Positions 1,496 to 37,918 of a DNA stretch of 64,000 nucleotides are shown one piece after another. How positions within the stretch are numbered: position 1 is the stretch's first letter; each line of letters starts with the position of its first letter. The notes beneath the pieces were generated by a model. The model was not told the DNA's origin, ran no database searches, and worked only from the letters and a program-made list of their open reading frames with translations. Source of the stretch: Eledone cirrhosa (lineage: Eukaryota); assembly GCA_964016885.1 (NCBI GenBank), contig OZ024747.1, forward strand, positions 73,718,001 through 73,782,000, given 5' to 3'. The translations under genes were made by a program, and so were the position numbers.

Positions 1496-2061
1496 TATAT
1501 AAGTCTCTTTCTGATATATAACAGATGTCATTTTATGTTGGTATAATTACACTAGGATTCTGTTGAATAAGGTCTTGTGTATATACTGAGCTAGATGTGA
1601 ATTTGAAAGTGTGCATGTGAAAACTAATAACACAACTAAACATTATTTATATCTGCTTCAATCAGAAAAAAGATAAACCTGAATCGAACATCAACACAGA
1701 ATCACTAAGGCTACAAACCAATATTACTACGAACAAAATATTTCCCGCATCAATATCACAATATTTTGACTCTCATCAACTCAAAGTCGATAAAATGTAC
1801 CAGTCTAGTACTGGGTTCGATTCTTCCTCTAATATATCTTTCTAACATCCATTCTCTCACTTTCTATTTCCTTCTCTGGAAGAAATTTGCCGAATTCAGA
1901 CCTGGTGAGGATTGGGCTCCACCAGGTTTTTAAATACCCGTGAAACACCGTATATACGGAACCTCTACAACTCCCGTAAGTGTTTCGGGACCATGCATAC
2001 ATCCTACCAGATACATCGCCACTAGCCTAGTTCACACTGTCTTTCTCTCTTTGTCATTATT

Positions 2062-2245
2062 GTGAATTGGCAGTATCGGTAGAGGGTTGGATGCCATGCT
2101 TTCTAGCATAGTTACGTCCCTTTACAGTCTGTGTTCAAATCCCGCCGAGGTTAACTTTACCTTTCATCCTTACGGGGTCGATAAAATAAAGAACCAGTAA
2201 TGTACTGTGTATTTGCTGGCCTTGTGCCTAAAGTAGAAACAATTA
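2062..2245 (+). mobile_element. tRNA-derived SINE (Nin-domain type)
   Basis: ttggcagtatcggtagag, gttcaaatcccgccgagg, ctttcatccttacggggtcgataaaat, gctggccttgtgcctaaagtagaaacaatt. Confidence 0.9.
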
Positions 2246-2898
2246 TTACTATCTACACTCTCTACTGATTCTGTGTGCTCTACATCCAATATACTCTAGC
2301 ATCTTCAAAATATTTTCTTCAGGAATATTTTCTTGCATACACTGTACAGTTAACCAATCCAATCAATGTGATGTATTTCATTATATTGATATATTTGTAT
2401 GGGGGTTACTATAATCCCGTATCGGATATCTATTAAATTACTGACACTCTGCAGAAATGGACATGCCACAGACACCTCTAAACTTATTTTCACTAAGCAA
2501 AAACACATGACACACCCAGATAATTCTCTAGTTTCACAATCATTTTAACAGCTTCCCAACAACACAAACAATACCACATATCTATAAATTTTAAACATCT
2601 TCTTTCATCTTTATATTATGTTATATACGTACACATACATAAATGCATATTATTGTACACATAAACACACACATGCACACATATATGCCATACGTATATA
2701 TTATATTATATCTATATAGACACATACATAAATGCACAGTATCGCACATCCACACATACATGCACACAAATGTTTATATTATACTATATACATAGGCACA
2801 CATACAATGCATAGAATCCATACATAGTCACAAAAACATGCTTATATGAACACATGCATATTCACATAGAGACACACATATACATATACACATATACG

Positions 2899-2952
<54 letters not shown>

Positions 2953-3096
2953 CTTAATCAAATAAATTCTCTTCTACGTGAGTTTTACTGTAGGACTGAA
3001 CGTGATGTTTCCCCGGGGTAAGTTTCTTTGCTCTCAAACCACTTAGTTCTGTCTTGCGAATTAATCACCTCCCACGAATCCTCTCCCTACCCTTAC

Positions 3097-3187
<91 letters not shown>

Positions 3188-3192
<5 letters not shown>

Positions 3193-3718
3193 GGAAAAAA
3201 TGAAACGATATTTCATTTCCCACTCTTAGTACGGCTGTTACTTAAATATATGTACACGTACATACATATATGTATACATACGTACAGTAGTATGTATATA
3301 TATATACATACATGCACACATATATATATGCACGTATGGATTCACCGAACTTTTATTATAATGCTCGGTGTGTTTGTAAACAAACATCCCGTATTAAGCC
3401 GTAGTGTCTAGCAACCACCGTTGCTCATTTGTTCAACACTGACAAAGGAACGCTGTACTAGTTTCAAGCTTGTTAGCTATCGTCAGCAACGTATACCTTC
3501 CTGCCAGATTGTGAACGTATATACTTACCTTATGCATATTAACGGCTGAGTAGCCCAATTTGCATATCGAGCGGGTTAATCGGCCGGGTGCACCGAAAAC
3601 GATAAACGGAAAAAATGAAACGATATTTCATTTCCCACTCTTAGTACGGCTGTTACTTAAATATAAGTATGTACACGTACATACATATATGTATACAGAC
3701 GTACAGTAGTATGTATAT
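3188..3718 (-). mobile_element. Retrozyme-like non-autonomous element: ~415-bp unit with ~112-bp terminal direct repeat and a hammerhead
   Basis: 3188-3299 repeated at 3603-3718; hammerhead between the repeats; abuts (TA)n. Confidence 0.7.
3450..3492 (-). ncRNA. Minimal type-I hammerhead ribozyme
   Basis: Minus strand: ACGTTG-CTGACGA-tAGCTaacaAGCTt-GAAA-CTAG-TA-CAGCGT. Stem I pairs, stem III is palindromic, GUA cleavage triplet. Confidence 0.85.
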
Positions 3719-3843
3719 CTATTCATAAGTCAATAGGATCAACTAAAAAATCAATAAAATTAACTGATCAATAGCTAAAGACTGGAGATAAATACATATA
3801 TATATATATATATATAATGATATATATATATAATGATATATAA

Positions 3844-3910
<67 letters not shown>

Positions 3911-4174
3911 TAATGATATATATATAGAGAGAGAGAGAGAGAATTTAGTATATCTACTAACATATGCGTACAGATGTACGCTAATGCTAGCAAATACACA
4001 GGTTATGTCATAGTACCTAGGTGGTTCAATGCAGGAGGATGCATAACAATAATATAAAAGACGGAAAATAAGAAAATTTTAAGATAAATTTAAAAAAATT
4101 AACTTATTTACTAAAGATTTTAGTAAGTAAGTTAATTTTTTAAAATTTTTTTAAATTTTCTTATTTTACCTCTT

Positions 4175-4242
<68 letters not shown>

Positions 4243-4331
4243 GATATATATATATATATATGATATATATATATATATATATATATGATATATATATATA
4301 TATATATATGATGTATATATATATATATATA

Positions 4332-4415
<84 letters not shown>

Positions 4416-4448
4416 ATAAATGGAAAACTATATTTATAAAACCATATT

Positions 4449-4514
4449 TATTTCATTATATATATTTCGGGGATATCATATTAACAATATGCTATGCCTT
4501 CATCAGACAAAATA
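4449..4514 (-). ncRNA. Type-I hammerhead ribozyme (family A)
   Basis: Exact reverse complement of 4669-4734. Confidence 0.75.
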
Positions 4515-4668
4515 CAATATAAACAGTTTTATAGATAAATATATTCGACATACCGTAATAAACATCAACTTCATTTGAAGAGGTTTACGCTAGCGTAAAC
4601 CTCTTCAAATGAAGTTGATGTTTATTACGGTATGTCGAATATATTTATCTATAAAACTGTTTATATTG

Positions 4669-4734
4669 TATTTTGTCTGATGAAGGCATAGCATATTGTT
4701 AATATGATATCCCCGAAATATATATAATGAAATA
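4669..4734 (+). ncRNA. Type-I hammerhead ribozyme (family A)
   Basis: tattttgt-CTGATGA-aggcatagCATATTgttAATATGatatcccc-GAAA-TATATA-TA-atgaaata. Confidence 0.75.
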
Positions 4735-4767
4735 AATATGGTTTTATAAATATAGTTTTCCATTTAT

Positions 4768-4846
<79 letters not shown>

Positions 4847-4938
4847 TCATATATATATATATATATACATCATATATATATATATATATATATCATATAT
4901 ATATATATATATATATATCATATATATATATATATATC

Positions 4939-5024
<86 letters not shown>

Positions 5025-5032
<8 letters not shown>

Positions 5033-5479
5033 ATAAATGGAAAACTATATTTATAAAACCATATTTATTTCATTATATATATTTCGGGGATATCATATTA
5101 ACAATATGCTATGCCTTCATCAGACAAAATACAATATAAACAGTTTTATAGATAAATATATTCGACATACCGTAATAAACATCAACTTCATTTGAAGAGG
5201 TTTACGCTAGCGTAAACCTCTTCAAATGAAGTTGATGTTTATTACGGTATGTCGAATATATTTATCTATAAAACTGTTTATATTGTATTTTGTCTGATGA
5301 AGGCATAGCATATTGTTAATATGATATCCCCGAAATATATATAATGAAATAAATATGGTTTTATAAATATAGTTTTCCATTTATTTAATATTGTAAATAT
5401 ACTCCAAATATTTGTCGAGTGCTTTTATATCAGTTATAAATATTTACTAGTTGTAACCCAACAATTTTAAATATAACTT

Positions 5480-5734: not shown

Positions 5735-5869
5735 ATATATAATGTAGGAGGTGAGTTTTATTGTAGTACAATAAAGCAATGCAGATATCGGATAATAAGC
5801 ACTCTACAGTTTGTAGGACTGGAGTATACATACTATATAAGAACAAAAGATGGTTAAAAGAGTTCCATG

Positions 5870-5940
5870 TATTTTATTATGCGCATTTCAAAAACAAACA
5901 TCATCATGCAATAATATTTGTGTTTTCATCAGATAAAACA
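5870..5940 (-). ncRNA. Type-I hammerhead ribozyme (family B)
   Basis: Reverse complement of 7711-7781. Confidence 0.85.
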
Positions 5941-6792
5941 TGAAGACATGATATGAAGGTTAAAAACACTTGTGGGTAGTTCAGTTTTAAATCAACATAT
6001 GAGAAGTAGTTTTAGATTGATGTGTGATATTGGGAAAAATATTTTATTTAGAGGGGGGGTTGGAAAGGATGAAAAAGAGGAGGAGATGAGAGTAAAAAGT
6101 GGAGAGGGAGGAGTATAATGAGGAAGGATGAGATAGGAGGAGAGATGGGTGATAGAGAGAGATAGCTTTTATAACTGAGAAAGATATATTGTTTTACATA
6201 GAGAGGTTGAAAACCGTTGGAAGATAATGAATAAATTAAAAGAATTTGAAAATTAACGAAGAGAAAAATAATGTAAAGTTAAGGTTTGTATATTGAGGGG
6301 TTTGATAATATGTGCGATGAAAAAAGAAAATGTTAATATGTATTGAGAATAATGTTTAAGGGTTTAATAATATGTGCGATGTTAAGAAGATGTTGATATG
6401 TATTATTAAAAGGAACAACAGGTTATTTAAGTAAGGAAATATTGTGAGATGAATGAGTTAGATGAAAGGGAGAAAAGAATAATGAATTGCGGATGAATAA
6501 TCTAACGTCAAAAAAATATATATGTTTACGAAGGATTTTTACAAGGTGATATAGAGTAAGAATGTATTGTATTATGTAATAATTGATTCTATGTTAGGCA
6601 AGAGTGAGAAAAGGTACAGATTAGTGGTTAGACATTAAAAGAAGAAGAGAAGAATGAGTAACAAGTATTATAGAATGTATAATAACCTTTGAAATAAGGT
6701 AGAAAGATGGGTATATTTTTAAAAGAAGTGTATATATATATATATATATGTGCCTTTGAGAAAAATATTCTAAATTGATAAAGAATTGAATA

Positions 6793-7240
6793 TTAGCTGT
6801 ATACTTTGTGAAATGTTTTATGGAATTTATGCAAGCAGATAGAAAACAAGTCAGTGCGTCTATTTATTATAGAATCTAAATTAGAAATAATGGTAAATTT
6901 TTCATTTAGGCACAGTTTGCAAATTTTGGATAGAGAACTGTTCAAGTATAAAGACGCAGAAGAAACCTTCTTCCAAAAGATGCTATATTTAATATTTTTG
7001 TCTTTCAAGGACCATATGAGTTCTGAGAGAGCCGTGTTGGTTCTTTTAAGTTTGTATTTAAAAGATGAATGATGTTTATAAAGACGAGCTTTAAAAGAGG
7101 TGGAAGTGGAGCCAAAATAGGTGAAGGATTGGTCTCAGTTATAACCTTACATTCGTAAATTAAGTTTTTATGAAGACAATGGTTGTTGAGAGGACATTTA
7201 TTTTTAATAGGGCAATTGCAATTGCGATTAGAGAGATTAT
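6793..7240 (-). pseudogene. Frameshifted PLE GIY-YIG endonuclease
   Basis: Reads CNCPIKNKCPLNNHCLHKNLIYECKV/(frameshift near 7130)/TYFGSTSTSFKARLYKHHSSF..TALSELIWSLK..CKLCLNEK..INRRTDLFSICLH; homologous to the 9610 ORF. Confidence 0.9.
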
Positions 7241-7710
7241 TTTGGCTCCACTTCCATCTCTTTTAAAGCTCGTCTTTTCTCCCCTTCATCTAACTCATTA
7301 TTCTCAATACATATTAACTCTTTCTTTTTCTTCGCACATATTATCAAACCCCTCAATATACAAACCTTAACTTTACATTATTGTTCTCTTCGTTAATTTT
7401 CAAATTCTTTTAATTTATACATTATCTTCCAACGGTTTTCAACCTCTCTATGTAAAACAATATATCTTTCTCAGTTATAAAAGCTATCTCTCTCTCTCTA
7501 TCACCCATCTCTTTTCCTATCTCATCCTTCCTCATTATAATCCTCCCTCTCCACCTTCACTCTCATCTCCTCCTTTCTTTCAACTTTGCCACCCCCCTCT
7601 AAATAAAATATCTTATCCAATATTACACATCAATCTAAAACCACTTCTCATATGTTGATTTAAAACTGAACTATCCACAAGTGTTTTTTAACCTTCATAT
7701 CATGTCCTCC

Positions 7711-7781
7711 TGTTTTATCTGATGAAAACACAAATATTATTGCATGATGATGTTTGTTTTTGAAATGCGCATAATAAAATA
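7711..7781 (+). ncRNA. Type-I hammerhead ribozyme (family B)
   Basis: TGTTTTAT-CTGATGA-(16-position stem II aaacacaaatattatt/gatgatgtttgttttt, loop gcat)-GAAA-TGCGCA-TA-ATAAAATA. Confidence 0.88.
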
Positions 7782-7811
7782 CATGGAACTCTTTTAACCA
7801 TCTTTTGTTCT

Positions 7812-7887
<76 letters not shown>

Positions 7888-8797: not shown

Positions 8798-8800
<3 letters not shown>

Positions 8801-8981
8801 AACGAGTAGGACCCAGACGGCTGAGCTCAAGCCGTTTCGACGGCTAATTCTGAATTAGCCGTCGAAACGGCTTAAGCTCAGCTGTCGGGTCCTACTCGTT
8901 CCTATTACCCACTCTACTACCCTAAGTATTGAGTACTTTGGTGTATTATGGTCCATCTGGTTCCTTACCACATTCCCTTCG

Positions 8982-9033: not shown

Positions 9034-9609
9034 TGAATAAATTGGGTATAATACCAGTTTTTTTACCAAATGAAATGAACCTCCATATATTAACCCCTTA
9101 CGAAAGTGCACAGAGCATAATGTATTTAAATATCTCGTATATACTGTGGCGGGGGAAATGTAGGGGAATATGCCCTACCCCCTTCCAATAATTATATTTT
9201 TCTCCCCAGACTACCAAAACAAACATCTACTGGTCTATGCGCTACAATATATGTACAATTTATGTACATGTTTATCGCATATCTAAGTTTTCTGGTCATT
9301 TTAGAGTTCAAAGAGTTAAACCTATCAATGTAACTGTCCAAACTTGCCCCTCCTCCATTAAGAAATGCATCTGCTGTTTCTGTATTGTACTTCTGCTTAG
9401 GATAGCAAATAATACTCAAGTTAGAATATATACACACATATACACACATTTGATTATAATAAATGAATATATATATATTTATTTATTCATGTGTGAGGTG
9501 GGTAGATACAGAATAGATAATAATACTCAGGCTATAACTCACACTCATTATATATATATATATATATATACATAAGGATATATCATATATACATAAGGAC
9601 TCTCAAACC

Positions 9610-10701
9610 ATGAGTGTGAAACCTACCAACATAATCACACATAGTATGGCCACAAAGCCTAACCAACTTAGAGGCAAGAATAATAGTAAGAACCCTAATG
9701 GCGGTAACCCAGCTAAATGTAAACCACGTAAAGACAATACTAGAGTCCCTCACCACAACTCTAAAACAGTAAATGATCATGCCATGAATATAAACCATCC
9801 GGGCTTAAGCAAAACAGACAACGCCACTAACGTTAATAACGGAACCCTACAAAATAGTACGCACAGTAGCGAGACTCACCCCACAGATAAGAAAAATAGA
9901 AGAAGGAAAAACATGTATTTTAACCCACCTTTTAACTCTGAGGTCCTCACTAACCTCCCCAGAGTATTCTTCTCATTATTGGAAAAAAACTTCCCACCAG
10001 GCAATAGATATCGCAACATAATTAACAAAAACGTAATTAAATTATCCTATTCGATCACACCTAACCTCGCATCACACCTAGTACGCACGAACATTAGGAA
10101 AACTAGGGAAGGCTTCGAAGCAATTAAAATAGCAGTTAACCAGCAGCAACCGACTACACTGGAAAATGGGCAACATAATAGCATCAATGAGCCATCTAAT
10201 GATATAGAGGCACCTAGTGATAATGCTAGTAACCAAACTTCGGGAGGTACGCTAACTAATCGAACCCGCAGTTGCAATTGTAGGCGGAGTAGTAACTGTC
10301 CCCTAAGGTGGGACTGCCTCATGAAAAACATAGTATATGCATGTGACGTAACCACACACAACTCTACCAAAACATATATAGGAGCAACGTCCAATACATT
10401 TAAAACTAGATTTAACGCGCATATGTACACATTTAGACCAGATAGACATAAGAATGCCACCTCACTGGCGGTATACATCTCCTTTTTAAAAAATAATAGT
10501 ACCCCATACAAACTTTTTTGGAGGAAGCTTACTAGATCCACGCCATACCGACCGCAGAGCGGAAGTTGTGACCTGTGTTTACTGGAATGCCATGCTATAA
10601 TACACTCTAAACTGAGCCTGCTTAACAGGAAATCGGAAATTTTCTCCTCTTGTCAACACAAAATCCTGAGTTCCTTCTTCTATTTTAAACCTAGCACATA
10701 G
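9610..10701 (+). CDS. PLE-type GIY-YIG endonuclease with post-thumb region and Cys/His motifs (Naiad-like), no RT
   Basis: Uninterrupted 363 aa: RKNMYFNPPFN..KLSYS, CNCRRSSNCPL..C, IVYACDV..TYIGAT..FKTRFNAH, CDLCLLE, LLNRKSE..CQH. Confidence 0.9.
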   Translation: MSVKPTNIITHSMATKPNQLRGKNNSKNPNGGNPAKCKPRKDNTRVPHHNSKTVNDHAMNINHPGLSKTDNATNVNNGTLQNSTHSSETHPTDKKNRRRKNMYFNPPFNSEVLTNLPRVFFSLLEKNFPPGNRYRNIINKNVIKLSYSITPNLASHLVRTNIRKTREGFEAIKIAVNQQQPTTLENGQHNSINEPSNDIEAPSDNASNQTSGGTLTNRTRSCNCRRSSNCPLRWDCLMKNIVYACDVTTHNSTKTYIGATSNTFKTRFNAHMYTFRPDRHKNATSLAVYISFLKNNSTPYKLFWRKLTRSTPYRPQSGSCDLCLLECHAIIHSKLSLLNRKSEIFSSCQHKILSSFFYFKPST

Positions 10702-11443
10702 ACGTAACATATATCACGCAACCCCCACCTAGACTATAGCTTCCACCCATTTCCCCCCCCAACCCGTAAGCCAGATAGATAGGTACCCTAAGGGTGGTAC
10801 AGTCCCCTACAAGGTTGGTGTTTTTGCGTGTGTGTGTGTGTGTGTGTGTATTCTCCTTTACTCTCTCACACGCACACCCACACAGACATATGTGTGGGTG
10901 TGCGTGCGTGTGTGCATGCATGCATGCATGCATGTGTGCGTGCATTGTATGCATGTATATTGTATATATATGTATATATATGTATATTGTATGCATGCGT
11001 ATTATATTGTGCGTATGTGTATATTTGACATGTATGTGAATATGTGTATGTATGCGTATGAGTGTGTATGTGTATGTGTAAGTGTATGATGTGTGTATGT
11101 ATGTGTATATGTATGTATACTTTTCTGTAGAAATTCTCTCTATATGTGGTGTGTGGCACGAATTCCTCCTATAATACTCTTCTCTGAGAGGAGCACGATA
11201 TGCAGAGTAACACATATGTATTGTGGAAGTTGAAACTGAGAACCACCACCCCTCCTGCTGACCCAAATGTTTACTGAGGACCAGAACACCATTCTCCGCA
11301 ATATAAGAGCGAAATGCGCTTGCCGGACTATTGATGACCATAACATCACATTCCAAGGTAATGGCAAAACACAGTGAATGCTATGCACGACCAGAACACC
11401 ACAGCATGCACATCCGAGCAGCACAGATATAATATCAATAGAG

Positions 11444-11758
11444 GAATCAACTGAATTTTTTGAGTTGAAATACATATGGATATGTGTCTGTGTGTATCGG
11501 ACACACGTACACATAAAGATGCTGCTGACCTAAATATACCTGTCATGCCTGTCTGAATTCCTAAGGGAATTGTCGGCCAGTTGCTGTCTTGACCGATTGG
11601 AGTACCAGTGGGTGAATCAATTGAGTTTTTTTTAGTTGAAATACATATAAATATGTGTCTGTGTGTGTCGGACACACGTACACATAAAGAAGCTGCCGAC
11701 CTAAATGTGCCTGTGATGCCTGTCTGAATTTTCGGTCAGTTGCTGACTTGACCGATTA
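11444..11758 (+). repeat. Tandem duplication, 170-bp period
   Basis: gaatcaa..gttgaaatacatat..ggacacacgtacacataaaga..ttgaccgatt at 11444 and 11614. Confidence 0.9.
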
Positions 11759-12960
11759 ACCCCACAATTACTACGTAGCGGTTCTTGCACGTGACTGCTG
11801 GACCAGGATGAAACGAAGACGAAGAATTTCCTTGCGTACCGTTTTGTACCACAGATGCGATCTCACCCTGCCTCGTTAATGTTCTATCGACACCAAAGTT
11901 CAACGTTCGGGCGAATATAATTGAATCCAACCACCAACAACATAGCTGGATGACCGATAATCACACCAAACCGGAGTACTGTGATCCTTGTGATTTCCAG
12001 ATACACAACCACTAACACTGTTACGAAGACCAGAAAACCATACTCCATAATATTGAACAAAGTGATTGATTTGTGCGACCAAAATAACACCACACACATA
12101 TTGAACTAGGAATATTGGATCCTCCGTCAATGTCCGGGTGAGCAAAAAATTAGATTTCTATCTGCATTGGAATCTACGAACTTGTGCATCTGCTGTGGTG
12201 TCAAAAACAAACGCGCATGACCGCACAGATAAACAATGGACCATGCCACGTGGCTTGAACCTGTAAGTGAATTGAAGGTTCTGCAACTCTGATACACAGA
12301 TTATTTATTATTAAGATGTATAAACTTGACATAACTATTATCATATTATATTCTCTCAACTAATCACACTTGATCATATTTCTCTATTTCTCTATCCCGT
12401 TTTCTCCCCCCATAATTATTATATTTTTTATTATTATTTGAAAAAATCGGTTTTTTTACATTGTGTTTTCCCCTCCAAATATTCGCTTATATTTCTTTAT
12501 ATATTCTCTATATATTTTTTTATCTTTATTATTTCCACTTTTATCCTCCTTTATATTTTACCTTATTCTTACTTTTATACCTTATTATAATGTAATCTTC
12601 CCCATGCCTTATTATACACTATTAATTATAGATTATTATTATTACTCTTTTTCCATTTCTAATTACCTCATGTACTTTCTCCTCCGCTATATATATATAT
12701 ATATTGTATGCCATTTGTGTTTGTGTAGCCTCTGCGCACCCTCTGCACCATACTATCGACGCCACCCCATCTATGGTTCAGCTAACCACCCGACTCCCGG
12801 GAATGAATATGACCGCAGCTAGTAAACAAGGACCCACACCCCACCCTCCCGCACCAAAATTAGACTTATCGTCCCCTACTTTTGCTCTTTACTCTCTTTA
12901 CTCTTTGTTCTTGAATGTTTGGTTGGTAGAGTCCATAACACCAATCAAACCCCTTTTATA

Positions 12961-13005
12961 GCTCTGACGAATCCTACGGTTACGTTAGGAAGAAACATTG
13001 TAAGC
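12961..13005 (+). ncRNA. Minimal type-I hammerhead at PLE 3' end
   Basis: GCT-CTGACGA-aTCCTAcggttacgtTAGGAa-GAAA-CAtTG-TA-AGC. Confidence 0.7.
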
Positions 13006-13050
13006 CAATAACAATCTTTTGAGGTTGTAGACGCTCTTGTGTTCTTTTTC

Positions 13051-13155
<105 letters not shown>

Positions 13156-27808: not shown

Positions 27809-28534
27809 CTCTATTTACTGTTGTTCCTTCCTTTAAATTTCGTACCTCGATATTTCATATTTTTATTACGTGGTATGGCTAGTTTAATTCTTTATCTTAT
27901 ACTTCACATTCCATGACATTCTACATCTCAACTTAGCTTTACATGATCTTTCCTAAACGATTCTGACTTACTTTTGTTTGATTTCATTCTTGTCAATCTC
28001 CCTAAGAGTCTATCTATATTTCTCTCTCCTTTCTCCTGTATTCCCTTATTCCACCAACATGCTTGCACTACAATCTTCTGCCACGATCTTTGCATTCACA
28101 ACAAACAAGTCCCACCGGCCACTTTCCACCCACGGTGACCTGTTTCTTAACTTCTTAAAATCTATTTTTCCCCTAATCACACATTTTTTAGGCGATGGCC
28201 TTATTATCACGCCGCCTCCAAAATGTTTCTGTCTATGCATAAACCTCCTGTATACTAAACTCATCCGTAGAACATATTCTATATTACCCTTACTCATGCG
28301 TGCTATTGTTCGTTCCACCTTTTCGCAAAACCGTAAACTCACCAACTACTTCTACCAAGCCAACAATATTTTTACAATCACCTTTCCAGCACTCCTCCTT
28401 CATCACCACCGCTTATACTAAGAACCAGACATTTTACTCTCATATCATTATTCCTTTACAGGCTATCGAACTCATTCCACTCGAGTTCTCTCAATCATTC
28501 ACTCTGCATTCTCTTTCTTTCCATACCCACCAAG

Positions 28535-30744
28535 AGTACAGCCATCTGTACCACCATCAGTACAGCCATCTGTACTACCATCAGTACAGCAGTCTGTACC
28601 ACCCATCAGTACAGCCATCTGTACTACCATCAGTACAGCAGTCTGTACCACCCATCAGTACAGCCATCTGTACCACCCATCAGTACAGCAGTCTGTACCA
28701 CCATCAGTACAGCAGTCTGTACCACCATCAGTACAGCCATCTGTACCACCATCAGTACAGCAATCTGTACCACCCATCAGTACAGCCATCTGTACCACCA
28801 TCAGTACAGCCATCTGTACCACCATCAGTACAGCAGTCTGTACCACCCATCAGTACAGTAGTCTGTACCACCCATCAGTACAGCAGTCTGTACCACCCAT
28901 CAGTACAGCAGTCTGTACCACCCATCAGTACAGCAGTCTGTACCACCATCACTACAGCCATCTGTACCACCATCAGTACAGCAGTCTGTACCACCAAGCA
29001 GTACAGCAGTCTGTACCACCCATCAGTACATCAGTCTGTACCACCATCAGTACAGCAGTCTGTACCACCAAGCAGTACAGCAGTCTGTACCACCATCAGT
29101 ACAGCAGTCTGTACCACCCATCAGTACAGCAGTCTGTACCACCATCAGTACAGGAATCTGTACCACCATCAGTACAGTAGTCTGTACCACCCATCAGTAC
29201 AGCAGCCTGTACCACCTATCAGTACATCAGTCTGTACCACCATCAGTACAGCAGTCTGTACCACCATCAGTACAGCAGTCTGTACCACCATCAGTACAGC
29301 AGTCTGTACCACCATCAGTACATCAGTCTGTACCACCATCAGTACAGCAGTCTGTACCACCATCAGTACAGCAGTCTGTACCACCATCAGTACAGCAGTC
29401 TGTACCACCATCAGTACAGCAGTCTGTACCACCCATCAGTACAGCAGTCTGTACCACCCATCAGTACAGCAATCCGTACCACCATCAGTACAGCAGTCTG
29501 TACCACCCATCAGTACAGCAATCTGTACCACCATCAGTACAGCAGTCTGTACCACCCATCAGTACAGCAGTCTGTACCACCAAGCAGTACAGCAATCCGT
29601 ACCACCATCAGTACAGCAGTCTGTACCACCCATCAGTACATCAATCTGTACCACCATCAGTACAGCAGTCTGTACCACCCATCAGTACAGCAGTCTGTAC
29701 CACCCATCGGTACAGCAATCCGTACCACCATCAGTACAGCAGTCTGTACCACCCATCAGTACAGCAGTCTGTACCACCCATCAGTACAGCAGTCTGTACC
29801 ACCCATCGGTACAGCAATCCGTACCACCATCAGTACAGCAGTCTGTACCACCATCAGTACAGCAGTCTGTACCACCCATCAGTACAGCAATCTGTACCAC
29901 CATCAGTACAGCCATCTGTACCACCATCAGTACAGCAGTCTGTACCACCATCAGTACAGCAGTCTGTACCACCATCAGTACAGCAGTCTGTACCACCCAT
30001 CAGTACAGCAGTCTGTACCACCAAGCAGTACATTCATCTGTACCACCCATCAGTACAGCCATCTGTACCAGAATCAGTACAACAGTCTGTACCACCCATC
30101 AGTACAGCAGTCTGTACCACCATCAGTACAGAAATCTGTACCACCATCAGTACAGCAGTCTGTACCACCCATCAGTACATCAGTCTGTACCACCATCAGT
30201 ACAGCAGTCTGTACCACCATCAGTACAGCAGTCTGTACCACCATCAGTACAGCAGTCTGTACCACCATCAGTACAGCAGTCTGTACCACCCATCAGTACA
30301 GCAATCTGTACCACCATTAGTACAGCAGTCTGTACCACCCATCAGTACAGCCATCTGTACCACCATCAGTACAGCAGTCTGTACCACCCATCAGTACAGC
30401 AGTCTGTACCACCCATCAGTACAGCAGTCTGTACCACCCATCAGTACAGCAGTCTGTACCACCCATCAGTACAGCAGTCTGTACCACCCATCGGTACAGC
30501 AATCCGTACCACCATCAGTACAGCAGTCTGTACCACCCATCAGTACAGCAGTCTGTACCACCCATCAGTACAGCAGTCTGTACCACCCATCAGTACAGCA
30601 GTCTGTACCACCCATCGGTACAGCAATCCGTACCACCATCAGTACAGCAGTCTGTACCACCAAGCAGTACAGCAATCTGTACCACCATCTGTACCACCAT
30701 CAGTACAGCAATCTGTACCACCATCAGTACAGCAATCTGTACCA
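28535..30744. repeat. Minisatellite, 24/25-bp unit cagtacagcagtctgtaccac(c)cat, ~90 copies
   Basis: Direct reading; each unit contains the inverted repeat GTACAG-N4-CTGTAC. Confidence 0.97.
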
Positions 30745-37734: not shown

Positions 37735-37918
37735 AGGAACGAGTATGACCCGACGGCTGAGCTCAAGCCGTTTCGACGGCTAGTCCAGAATTAGCCGTCG
37801 AAACGGCTTGAGCTCAGCCGTCGGGGTCCTACTCGTTCCTATTACCCACTCTACTACCCTAAGTATTGAGTACTTTGGTGCGTTATGGTCCCCCTGGTTC
37901 CTTACCACATTTCCTTCG

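What the first reader, a model, noticed from the sequence alone, without database searches (positions are those of the whole stretch)
9570..13050. Intact GIY-YIG endonuclease element without reverse transcriptase, ending in a hammerhead
Seen: a 363-aa uninterrupted ORF with all GIY-YIG catalytic positions apparently retained (VY..YIG, R in KTRF, H, E in CLLE, N in LLNR). It has an ATG in a good context (accATGa) and a ~100-aa Asn/Lys/Thr-rich N-terminus where RT should be, and in-frame stops lie just upstream. A 2.3-kb non-coding tail ends in a hammerhead and (TA)n. Inference: this is either a young 5'-truncated Naiad-like PLE or a stable endonuclease-only element that borrows RT in trans. The second case would be a bipartite PLE system.
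Basis: partly seen in the sequence, partly recalled or inferred. Interest (0 to 1): 0.75.

Follow-up and report, generated by a model that had tools for sequence, protein, structure and literature searches.

The report
Truncated Hydra-clade Penelope retrotransposon copy
The apparent nuclease-only element is the back two-thirds of an ordinary jumping gene whose full-length copies elsewhere in the same genome carry the missing reverse transcriptase in the same reading frame, so it is likely a copy cut short during insertion and not a two-part system.

Summary
The 363-aa ORF is the C-terminal part of an 845-aa RT + GIY-YIG ORF found intact in this genome (L028, L031). Its ATG is internal Met483, and the N/K/T-rich stretch is a linker insert absent from 93-100% of 105 homologues. 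Of 88 copies spanning the ATG, 84 run more than 60 nt upstream into RT coding sequence, 68 reach YRDD and 38 reach the ORF start, with scattered 5' ends. The five copies ending near this point are not a clade (AU p = 2e-8). The window copy's private changes look neutral (2 synonymous, 7 nonsynonymous; site ratio 3.74). It is not a Naiad (N-terminal nuclease, no canonical hammerhead). It fits the Hydra clade: DKT, CxCX5C, no CCHH, CxxC/CxH, hammerhead, (TA)n target. Minor oddities: a long unit (about 5.1 kb) and a 93-nt tail. The scan has noted truncated Hydra-clade copies before, on other DNA.

The parts
9549..9570 (.). (TA)11, upstream part of the microsatellite target
   Evidence: sequence; tandem repeat
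9558..9599 (+). 21-bp tandem duplication at the 5' junction, centred on the element's internal ATATATAC box
   Evidence: of the copies ending near this point whose junctions are printed, only this one shows it
9581..13057 (+). 5'-truncated PLE copy = positions 1589-5087 of the 5180-nt unit of natural full-length copy L028
   Evidence: blastn, 93.5% over 3529 columns; 96.6% to L002 over 2900
9583..9609 (+). nine leftover codons (SYIHKDSQT) of the segment after the RT thumb, in frame with the ATG
   Evidence: tblastn of the 845-aa protein covers 9580-10698
9610..10701 (+). 363-aa ORF = residues 483-845 of the full RT-EN protein; the ATG is internal Met483
9610..9897 (+). N/K/T-rich linker insert specific to this family, predicted disordered
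   Evidence: gap in 93-100% of 105 homologues at residues 481-560; pLDDT < 50 at 484-571
9898..9930 (+). RRRKNMYFNPP, start of the conserved domain between RT and nuclease
   Evidence: F88/N97/P100/P99% in homologues; coordinates
10273..10299 (+). CxCX5C linker motif (CNCRRSSNC); the following G, 88% conserved, is W in this copy
10330..10659 (+). GIY-YIG endonuclease core (IVY..YIG, R267, H271, CxxC, E326, N339, CxH), no CCHH pair between IVY and YIG
10702..13050 (+). 2.35-kb 3' UTR with microsatellites and a ~170-bp tandem duplication (11430-11757); its 3' part also serves as the pseudo-LTR in front of full-length copies
12961..13005 (+). type I minimal hammerhead motif: stem I GCU/AGC, CUGACGA, stem II hairpin, GAA, quasi-palindromic stem III ACA-U-UGU, predicted cleavage after 13002
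   Evidence: core CUGANGA intact in 139 of 149 motifs in held loci; same layout as the Hydra HHR table; activity untested
13051..13115 (.). 3' end at internal TA box A (no tail), merging into downstream (TA)n

Best explanation
This stretch is the 3' 3.5 kb of a 5.2-kb Penelope-like retrotransposon whose full-length copies in the same genome encode reverse transcriptase and nuclease in one 845-aa frame; it was likely cut short during reverse transcription into a (TA)n repeat and has likely been inert since. Shown: the full ORF, scattered 5' ends, (TA)n flanks, pseudo-LTR and inverted arrangements, two fixed 3' ends, independent origin of the short copies. Inferred from known PLE biology: the GIY-YIG domain nicks (TA)n, RT primes on the nick at an internal site of a tandem-unit RNA (here TA box A), and cDNA synthesis stops early. 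Inferred from this family's junctions: the cDNA end was joined to the target at the element's internal ATATATAC box, 18-34 nt before Met483, with a short slip that left the 21-bp duplication. The frame is still open because the copy is young (end branch 0.011), not because it is selected.
For: Intact natural ORFs of 845 and 846 aa end in the window's 363 aa. The predicted structure of the 845-aa protein (pLDDT 85.5) has telomerase RTs as its three best fold matches (E 9e-9 to 2e-8). 88 exact matches to the RT-continuing junction (one is the window itself) against 1 direct (TA)n junction. In those 88: 84 extend > 60 nt upstream, 68 reach YRDD, 38 reach the ORF start. 109 of the 115 endonuclease-tag sites were examined; their 5' ends spread over every bin from -1700 to +800 around the ATG. 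Tag counts rise towards the 3' end: 67, 88, 115, 1155. All 20 sampled 3' hits stop 154-1766 nt from the 3' end. The five copies ending near the ATG need 5 changes on the tree, and one clade is rejected (p 2e-8). Private changes: window 2 synonymous/7 nonsynonymous; pooled omega 0.88; shared variants 30/37, i.e. omega about 0.33 by my arithmetic.
Against: Five of 109 5' ends fall within about 16 nt of this point, more than an even spread would give, so the breakpoint is a mild hotspot that repeatedly leaves an ATG-initiated nuclease frame. Two of the five (window, L116) still have the 363 codons open. Nine private changes give little power to exclude weak selection on this one copy. Pfam and PDB sequence searches did not recognise the RT; its identity rests on motifs, homologues and the predicted fold (TM-scores 0.28-0.31 by query length). 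5' microhomology with (TA)n is only weakly enriched (mean 1.35 vs 0.88 nt, p 0.024, 31 junctions, one 8-nt case weighs heavily, window copy not among them).
Confidence: 0.96

Rival explanations
1. A stable endonuclease-only element that borrows RT in trans (bipartite PLE).
For: Open frame with all catalytic residues and an ATG in a good context; 5 of 109 copies end within about 16 nt of this point.
Against: The five have different junctions and flanks and are not a clade (window + L116 alone rejected at p 5e-10). Only 1 other exact direct junction exists genome-wide. The copy lacks the pseudo-LTR that precedes full-length ORFs. Private changes look neutral and include G to W at an 88%-conserved position. 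RT and nuclease are one ORF in the masters, so no nuclease donor is needed.
Confidence: 0.015
2. A truncated copy that the host has co-opted, or that is expressed from a flanking promoter as a free (TA)n nuclease.
For: Frame open and catalytic residues kept.
Against: 19 of 96 copies keep the segment open whatever their 5' end; 2:7 private changes match the neutral 1:3.74; no sign of a host gene around it (no long non-repetitive ORF in the window).
Confidence: 0.02
3. An assembly join that dropped the RT half.
For: The junction lies in (TA)n with a small duplication; contigs from the public runs did not bridge it (repeats are skipped there).
Against: It sits in a 94-Mb contig; dozens of other copies show the same kind of (TA)n-to-element junction at other positions; contigs matching the upstream flank at 9050-9421 exist.
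Confidence: 0.005

Closest known systems
Hydra clade of C-terminal EN+ Penelope-like elements (Craig et al. 2021, PMC8557442; read section 11, passages, supplement part 2), incl. Hydra-1_Obim, Penelope-n_HM
   Same: Single RT-EN ORF, R-W-x motif, DKT, CxCX5C linker, no CCHH, CxxC and CxH around E and N, hammerhead with palindromic stem III near the 3' end, (TA)n target.
   Different: Unit about 5.1 kb against 1.1-3.0 kb for the 27 listed families; two low-complexity inserts lengthen the ORF to 845 aa (most top homologues about 700); RWR instead of RWK; HHR sequence differs from that listed for Hydra-1_Obim, so likely a different family. No tree with named Hydra proteins was built.
Naiad PLEs (PMC8557442, passages)
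   Same: GIY-YIG nuclease, (TA)n preference, heavy 5' truncation, pseudo-LTR and inverted copies.
   Different: Naiads have the nuclease N-terminal to RT, CCHH present, DKA, no canonical hammerhead. All four differ here.
PAc, Poseidon PLE of Anolis (Frangieh et al. 2024, PMC11167929; read abstract and main text)
   Same: RT-EN polyprotein, tandem/pLTR arrangement, two alternative 3' ends separated by a 'tail', hammerhead.
   Different: In PAc reverse transcription starts at RNA sites not homologous to the cut DNA and the tail is 30-40 nt. Here both 3' ends fall on TA dinucleotides matching the target and lie 93 nt apart.
Minimal hammerheads of metazoan PLEs (Cervera and de la Pena 2014, PMC4209133; read part 1 of 4)
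   Same: Long helix II, short helix I, unpaired base at the foot of stem II, short palindromic helix III predicted to work as a dimer.
   Different: Here an A.A apposition closes stem II; cleavage untested.

Membership tests
Hydra-clade PLE | Single ORF with RT and C-terminal GIY-YIG | tested here: met
   L028 845 aa, L031 846 aa; fold matches telomerase RT
Hydra-clade PLE | DKG modified to DKT | tested here: met
   SDKT at 120-123; D100/K100/T94% in homologues
Hydra-clade PLE | RWK motif | tested here: inconclusive
   RWR here; homologues R99/W100/K58%
Hydra-clade PLE | CxCX5C linker | tested here: met
   CNCRRSSNC
Hydra-clade PLE | No CCHH pair inside GIY-YIG | tested here: met
   one Cys between IVY and YIG here; 0 in 91, 1 in 14, 2 in 1 of 106 rows
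Hydra-clade PLE | CxxC and CxH flanking catalytic E and N | tested here: met
   CDLC..E326, N339..CQH
Hydra-clade PLE | Canonical hammerhead near the 3' end | tested here: met
   descriptor match at 12964; core intact in 139 of 149; layout as in the paper's table; Rfam negative
Hydra-clade PLE | Insertion into (TA)n | tested here: met
   94 of 152 3' anchors run straight into (TA)n, 28 continue into an ORF, 30 not cleanly classified
Hydra-clade PLE | Generally short (< 3 kb) | tested here: not met
   unit 5180 nt with tail; the paper gives this as a general trait, not a defining one
Hydra-clade PLE | RT phylogeny groups with named Hydra elements | not tested
   named reference proteins were not available as stored sequences
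Naiad PLE | Endonuclease N-terminal to RT | tested here: not met
   EN is C-terminal
Naiad PLE | CCHH present, DKA, no canonical HHR | tested here: not met
Self-propagating RT-less (non-autonomous) element | Copies share one 5' boundary and form a clade | tested here: not met
Self-propagating RT-less (non-autonomous) element | Purifying selection on the retained ORF after loss of RT | tested here: not met
   private syn/nonsyn: window 2/7, L116 1/2, L065 3/12, L104 0/2, L114 1/7; low power per copy

The most novel reading that the evidence does not exclude
An internal TA box just before an in-frame ATG acts as a truncation hotspot that repeatedly spawns open, nuclease-only copies (5 independent events, 2 still open); if any is transcribed, it would supply free (TA)n-nicking nuclease in trans, a by-product route to a two-part PLE system. 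A milder version: this family primes reverse transcription by pairing internal TA boxes with the nicked (TA)n target, unlike the non-homologous priming shown for Anolis PAc.
Probability: 0.04. Interest if true: 0.5.

Novelty: new member of a known kind. Interest (0 to 1): 0.1.

Why it matters
As it stands it matters little: one of about a hundred nuclease-bearing and over a thousand 3'-end copies of a young PLE family of a described clade. It is a useful caution: in Hydra-type PLEs the 5'-truncation gradient plus an internal Met yields convincing 'RT-less nuclease genes', and Pfam misses the RT. The family itself is a long Hydra-type member with intact ORFs and two 3' ends on TA boxes, which would suit an in vitro test of whether (TA)n-targeting PLEs prime by homology. 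I did not find an RT-less, nuclease-only PLE family in the listings of three paper searches; the 2021 paper mentions stand-alone nucleases only with Terminons.

Tried and rejected
Rfam: no hammerhead family hit; only microsatellite-driven chance matches. Free folding of the hammerhead gave stem II only, z -0.74, so the motif rests on the descriptor and on conservation. Pfam on the full protein and 8 homologues and PDB sequence searches found no RT; a D5_N match (E 1e-4 to 3e-4, 36 residues) lies inside the RT and was set aside as spurious. The first DNA search showed most hits beginning at query position 12, which looks like a shared 5' boundary; this is only where the window copy begins, since 18 of 19 other loci continue upstream. 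Expression: no RNA holder listed, which says nothing either way. Contigs of three runs of one sample did not bridge the junction; repeats are skipped there and depth is not a copy number. Naiad membership rejected; my own first recollection that Naiads are RT-then-EN was wrong and was corrected from the paper. I guessed from composition that the host is a cephalopod and searched papers on that guess; the host was not established. Of the supplement of PMC8557442 I saw two search hits and part 2 of 59; its alignments (figs S2, S7) were not seen and bear on the clade assignment.

Full report
Observation. The window holds an open frame of 363 aa at 9610-10701. It has IVY..YIG, R267, H271, E326 and N339; each matching column is 99-100% conserved among 105 homologues. 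A 2.35-kb tail follows, ending in a hammerhead motif at 12961-13005 and (TA)n at 13051-13115. (TA)11 lies upstream at 9549-9570, and a 21-bp duplication spans the junction. Rfam does not detect the hammerhead and the isolated strand folds no better than shuffles. The motif rests on the catalytic core, kept in 139 of 149 motifs in held loci, and on its layout, which matches the Hydra hammerheads tabulated in PMC8557442 (supplement part 2) and the minimal PLE hammerheads of PMC4209133 (part 1 of 4).

The ORF is half of a longer one. A DNA search of the own genome gave 900 candidates, of which 40 were scored; the top 20 are 95-100% identical. In 18 of the 19 other loci fetched, the element continues upstream of the window's junction into RT-coding sequence; the exception is L019. 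Natural uninterrupted ORFs of 845 aa (L028) and 846 aa (L031) start at MLTKD and end with the window's 363 aa. The ATG is internal Met483, and the nine codons before it are the element's own. A protein search found 957 relatives among 7997 scored candidates, the listed ones mostly about 700 aa. In an alignment with 105 of the 120 listed, the N/K/T-rich stretch is an insert absent from 93-100% of rows and is predicted disordered. Sequence searches of Pfam and PDB miss the RT. The predicted structure (pLDDT 85.5) has telomerase RTs as its three best matches, and YRDD and DKT are near-invariant.

5' ends are scattered. Exact tags give 67 hits in RT, 88 at the junction, 115 in the nuclease and 1155 near the 3' end; exact patterns miss diverged copies, so these are lower bounds. 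All 88 junction hits were examined: 38 reach the ORF start, 68 reach YRDD, 84 extend more than 60 nt upstream, 4 do not. The direct (TA)n-to-junction form occurs once elsewhere. Of 115 nuclease-tag sites, 109 were examined: 36 reach the ORF start, 61 reach YRDD, 18 end between YRDD and -60, 5 end within 60 nt before the ATG, and 25 end downstream of it. Twenty 3' hits, spread through the 100 listed on contig 1, all stop 154-1766 nt from the 3' end. Full-length copies show the usual PLE layout of pseudo-LTR and inverted truncated copy.

No RT-less lineage. The five copies that end near the ATG (window, L116, L065, L104, L114) have different junctions and flanks. On a tree of 96 copies they need 5 changes; holding them together is rejected (AU p 2e-8), as is window + L116 (p 5e-10). 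Against the column majority the window copy has 2 synonymous and 7 nonsynonymous private changes, where neutrality predicts 1:3.74; one turns an 88%-conserved Gly next to the linker cysteines into Trp. Pooled private omega is 0.88, whereas variants shared by six or more copies are 30 synonymous to 37 nonsynonymous (omega about 0.33, my arithmetic), i.e. selection acted on the master copies, not after insertion. 19 of 96 copies keep these 363 codons open. Against my reading: five ends within about 16 nt is a mild hotspot, and nine changes cannot exclude weak selection on one copy.

Mechanism. Shown: one RT-EN ORF, (TA)n flanks, two fixed 3' ends 93 nt apart (77 at box A and 17 at box B of 152 anchors; 28 continue into an ORF; 30 unclassified), variable 5' ends. 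Taken from PMC11167929 (abstract and main text): the PLE protein nicks AT-rich DNA and starts reverse transcription inside its RNA at two sites that define the tail. Inferred: a full-length copy made this insertion at box A; cDNA stopped about 3.5 kb in and was joined to the target at the internal ATATATAC box, with a slip that left the duplication. Family-wide support for 5' microhomology is weak (1.35 vs 0.88 nt, p 0.024, 31 junctions). The copy lacks the pseudo-LTR, the likely promoter in that paper, so it is probably inert. Expression could not be tested.

Comparison. Not a Naiad: those have an N-terminal nuclease, CCHH, DKA and no canonical hammerhead. It fits the Hydra clade as described in section 11 of PMC8557442: C-terminal nuclease, DKT, CxCX5C, no CCHH, CxxC and CxH, hammerhead, (TA)n. 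It departs in RWR for RWK and in length (5180 nt against under about 3 kb). No tree with named Hydra proteins was built, so the clade rests on motifs. Earlier notes of this scan, looked up after my reading was fixed, report truncated Hydra-clade copies on another piece of this genome and in other genomes; I did not test them.

Verdict. An ordinary 5'-truncated copy of a young, long member of a known PLE clade. Interest 0.1. The most novel reading left open, a truncation hotspot feeding expressed nuclease-only copies, has about 4% probability.

Noticed in passing
window 5745-7812, minus strand: A second, unrelated Hydra-type PLE remnant in (TA)n: truncated at the CxCX5C linker, nuclease split over two frames (profile E 1e-27 and 1e-10), preceded by an inverted copy of its own 3' UTR, with a CTGATGA...GAAA motif at about 5932 (seen).
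   Followed up: partly
window 4506, 4677, 5123, 5294, 17200, 17870, 25867, 40634 (also 3486, 39872): Further hammerhead-core matches on both strands, several as inverted pairs; likely 3' fragments of other PLE families.
   Followed up: no
window 8799-8903: Near-perfect inverted repeat directly after (TA)n; a similar arm appears near 37784 and beside the 5' junction of L076.
   Followed up: no
L074 (G000:C3:55729390-55736190): The flank at the 5' junction looks by eye like the family's own 3' UTR in direct orientation, joined 69 nt before Met483: a possible pLTR-plus-nuclease, RT-deleted arrangement. Single copy; frame breaks after 150 aa.
   Followed up: no
held loci L021-L150: Two hammerhead variants: GUA triplet with short stem II (57 exact) and GUU triplet with a 2-nt longer stem II loop region (20 exact) among 149 motifs.
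   Followed up: partly
family 3' ends, e.g. L023, L024, L028: Two fixed 3' ends 93 nt apart, both on TA dinucleotides: 77 at box A and 17 at box B run into (TA)n among 152 anchors; the tail is longer than the 30-40 nt described for PLEs.
   Followed up: partly
L031 and L149 (C2, about 238 kb apart): Identical over the 363-codon segment on the tree: very recent copy or segmental duplication.
   Followed up: no
window 28527-30744: 2.2-kb minisatellite with 24/49-bp period that produces long spurious ORFs.
   Followed up: no
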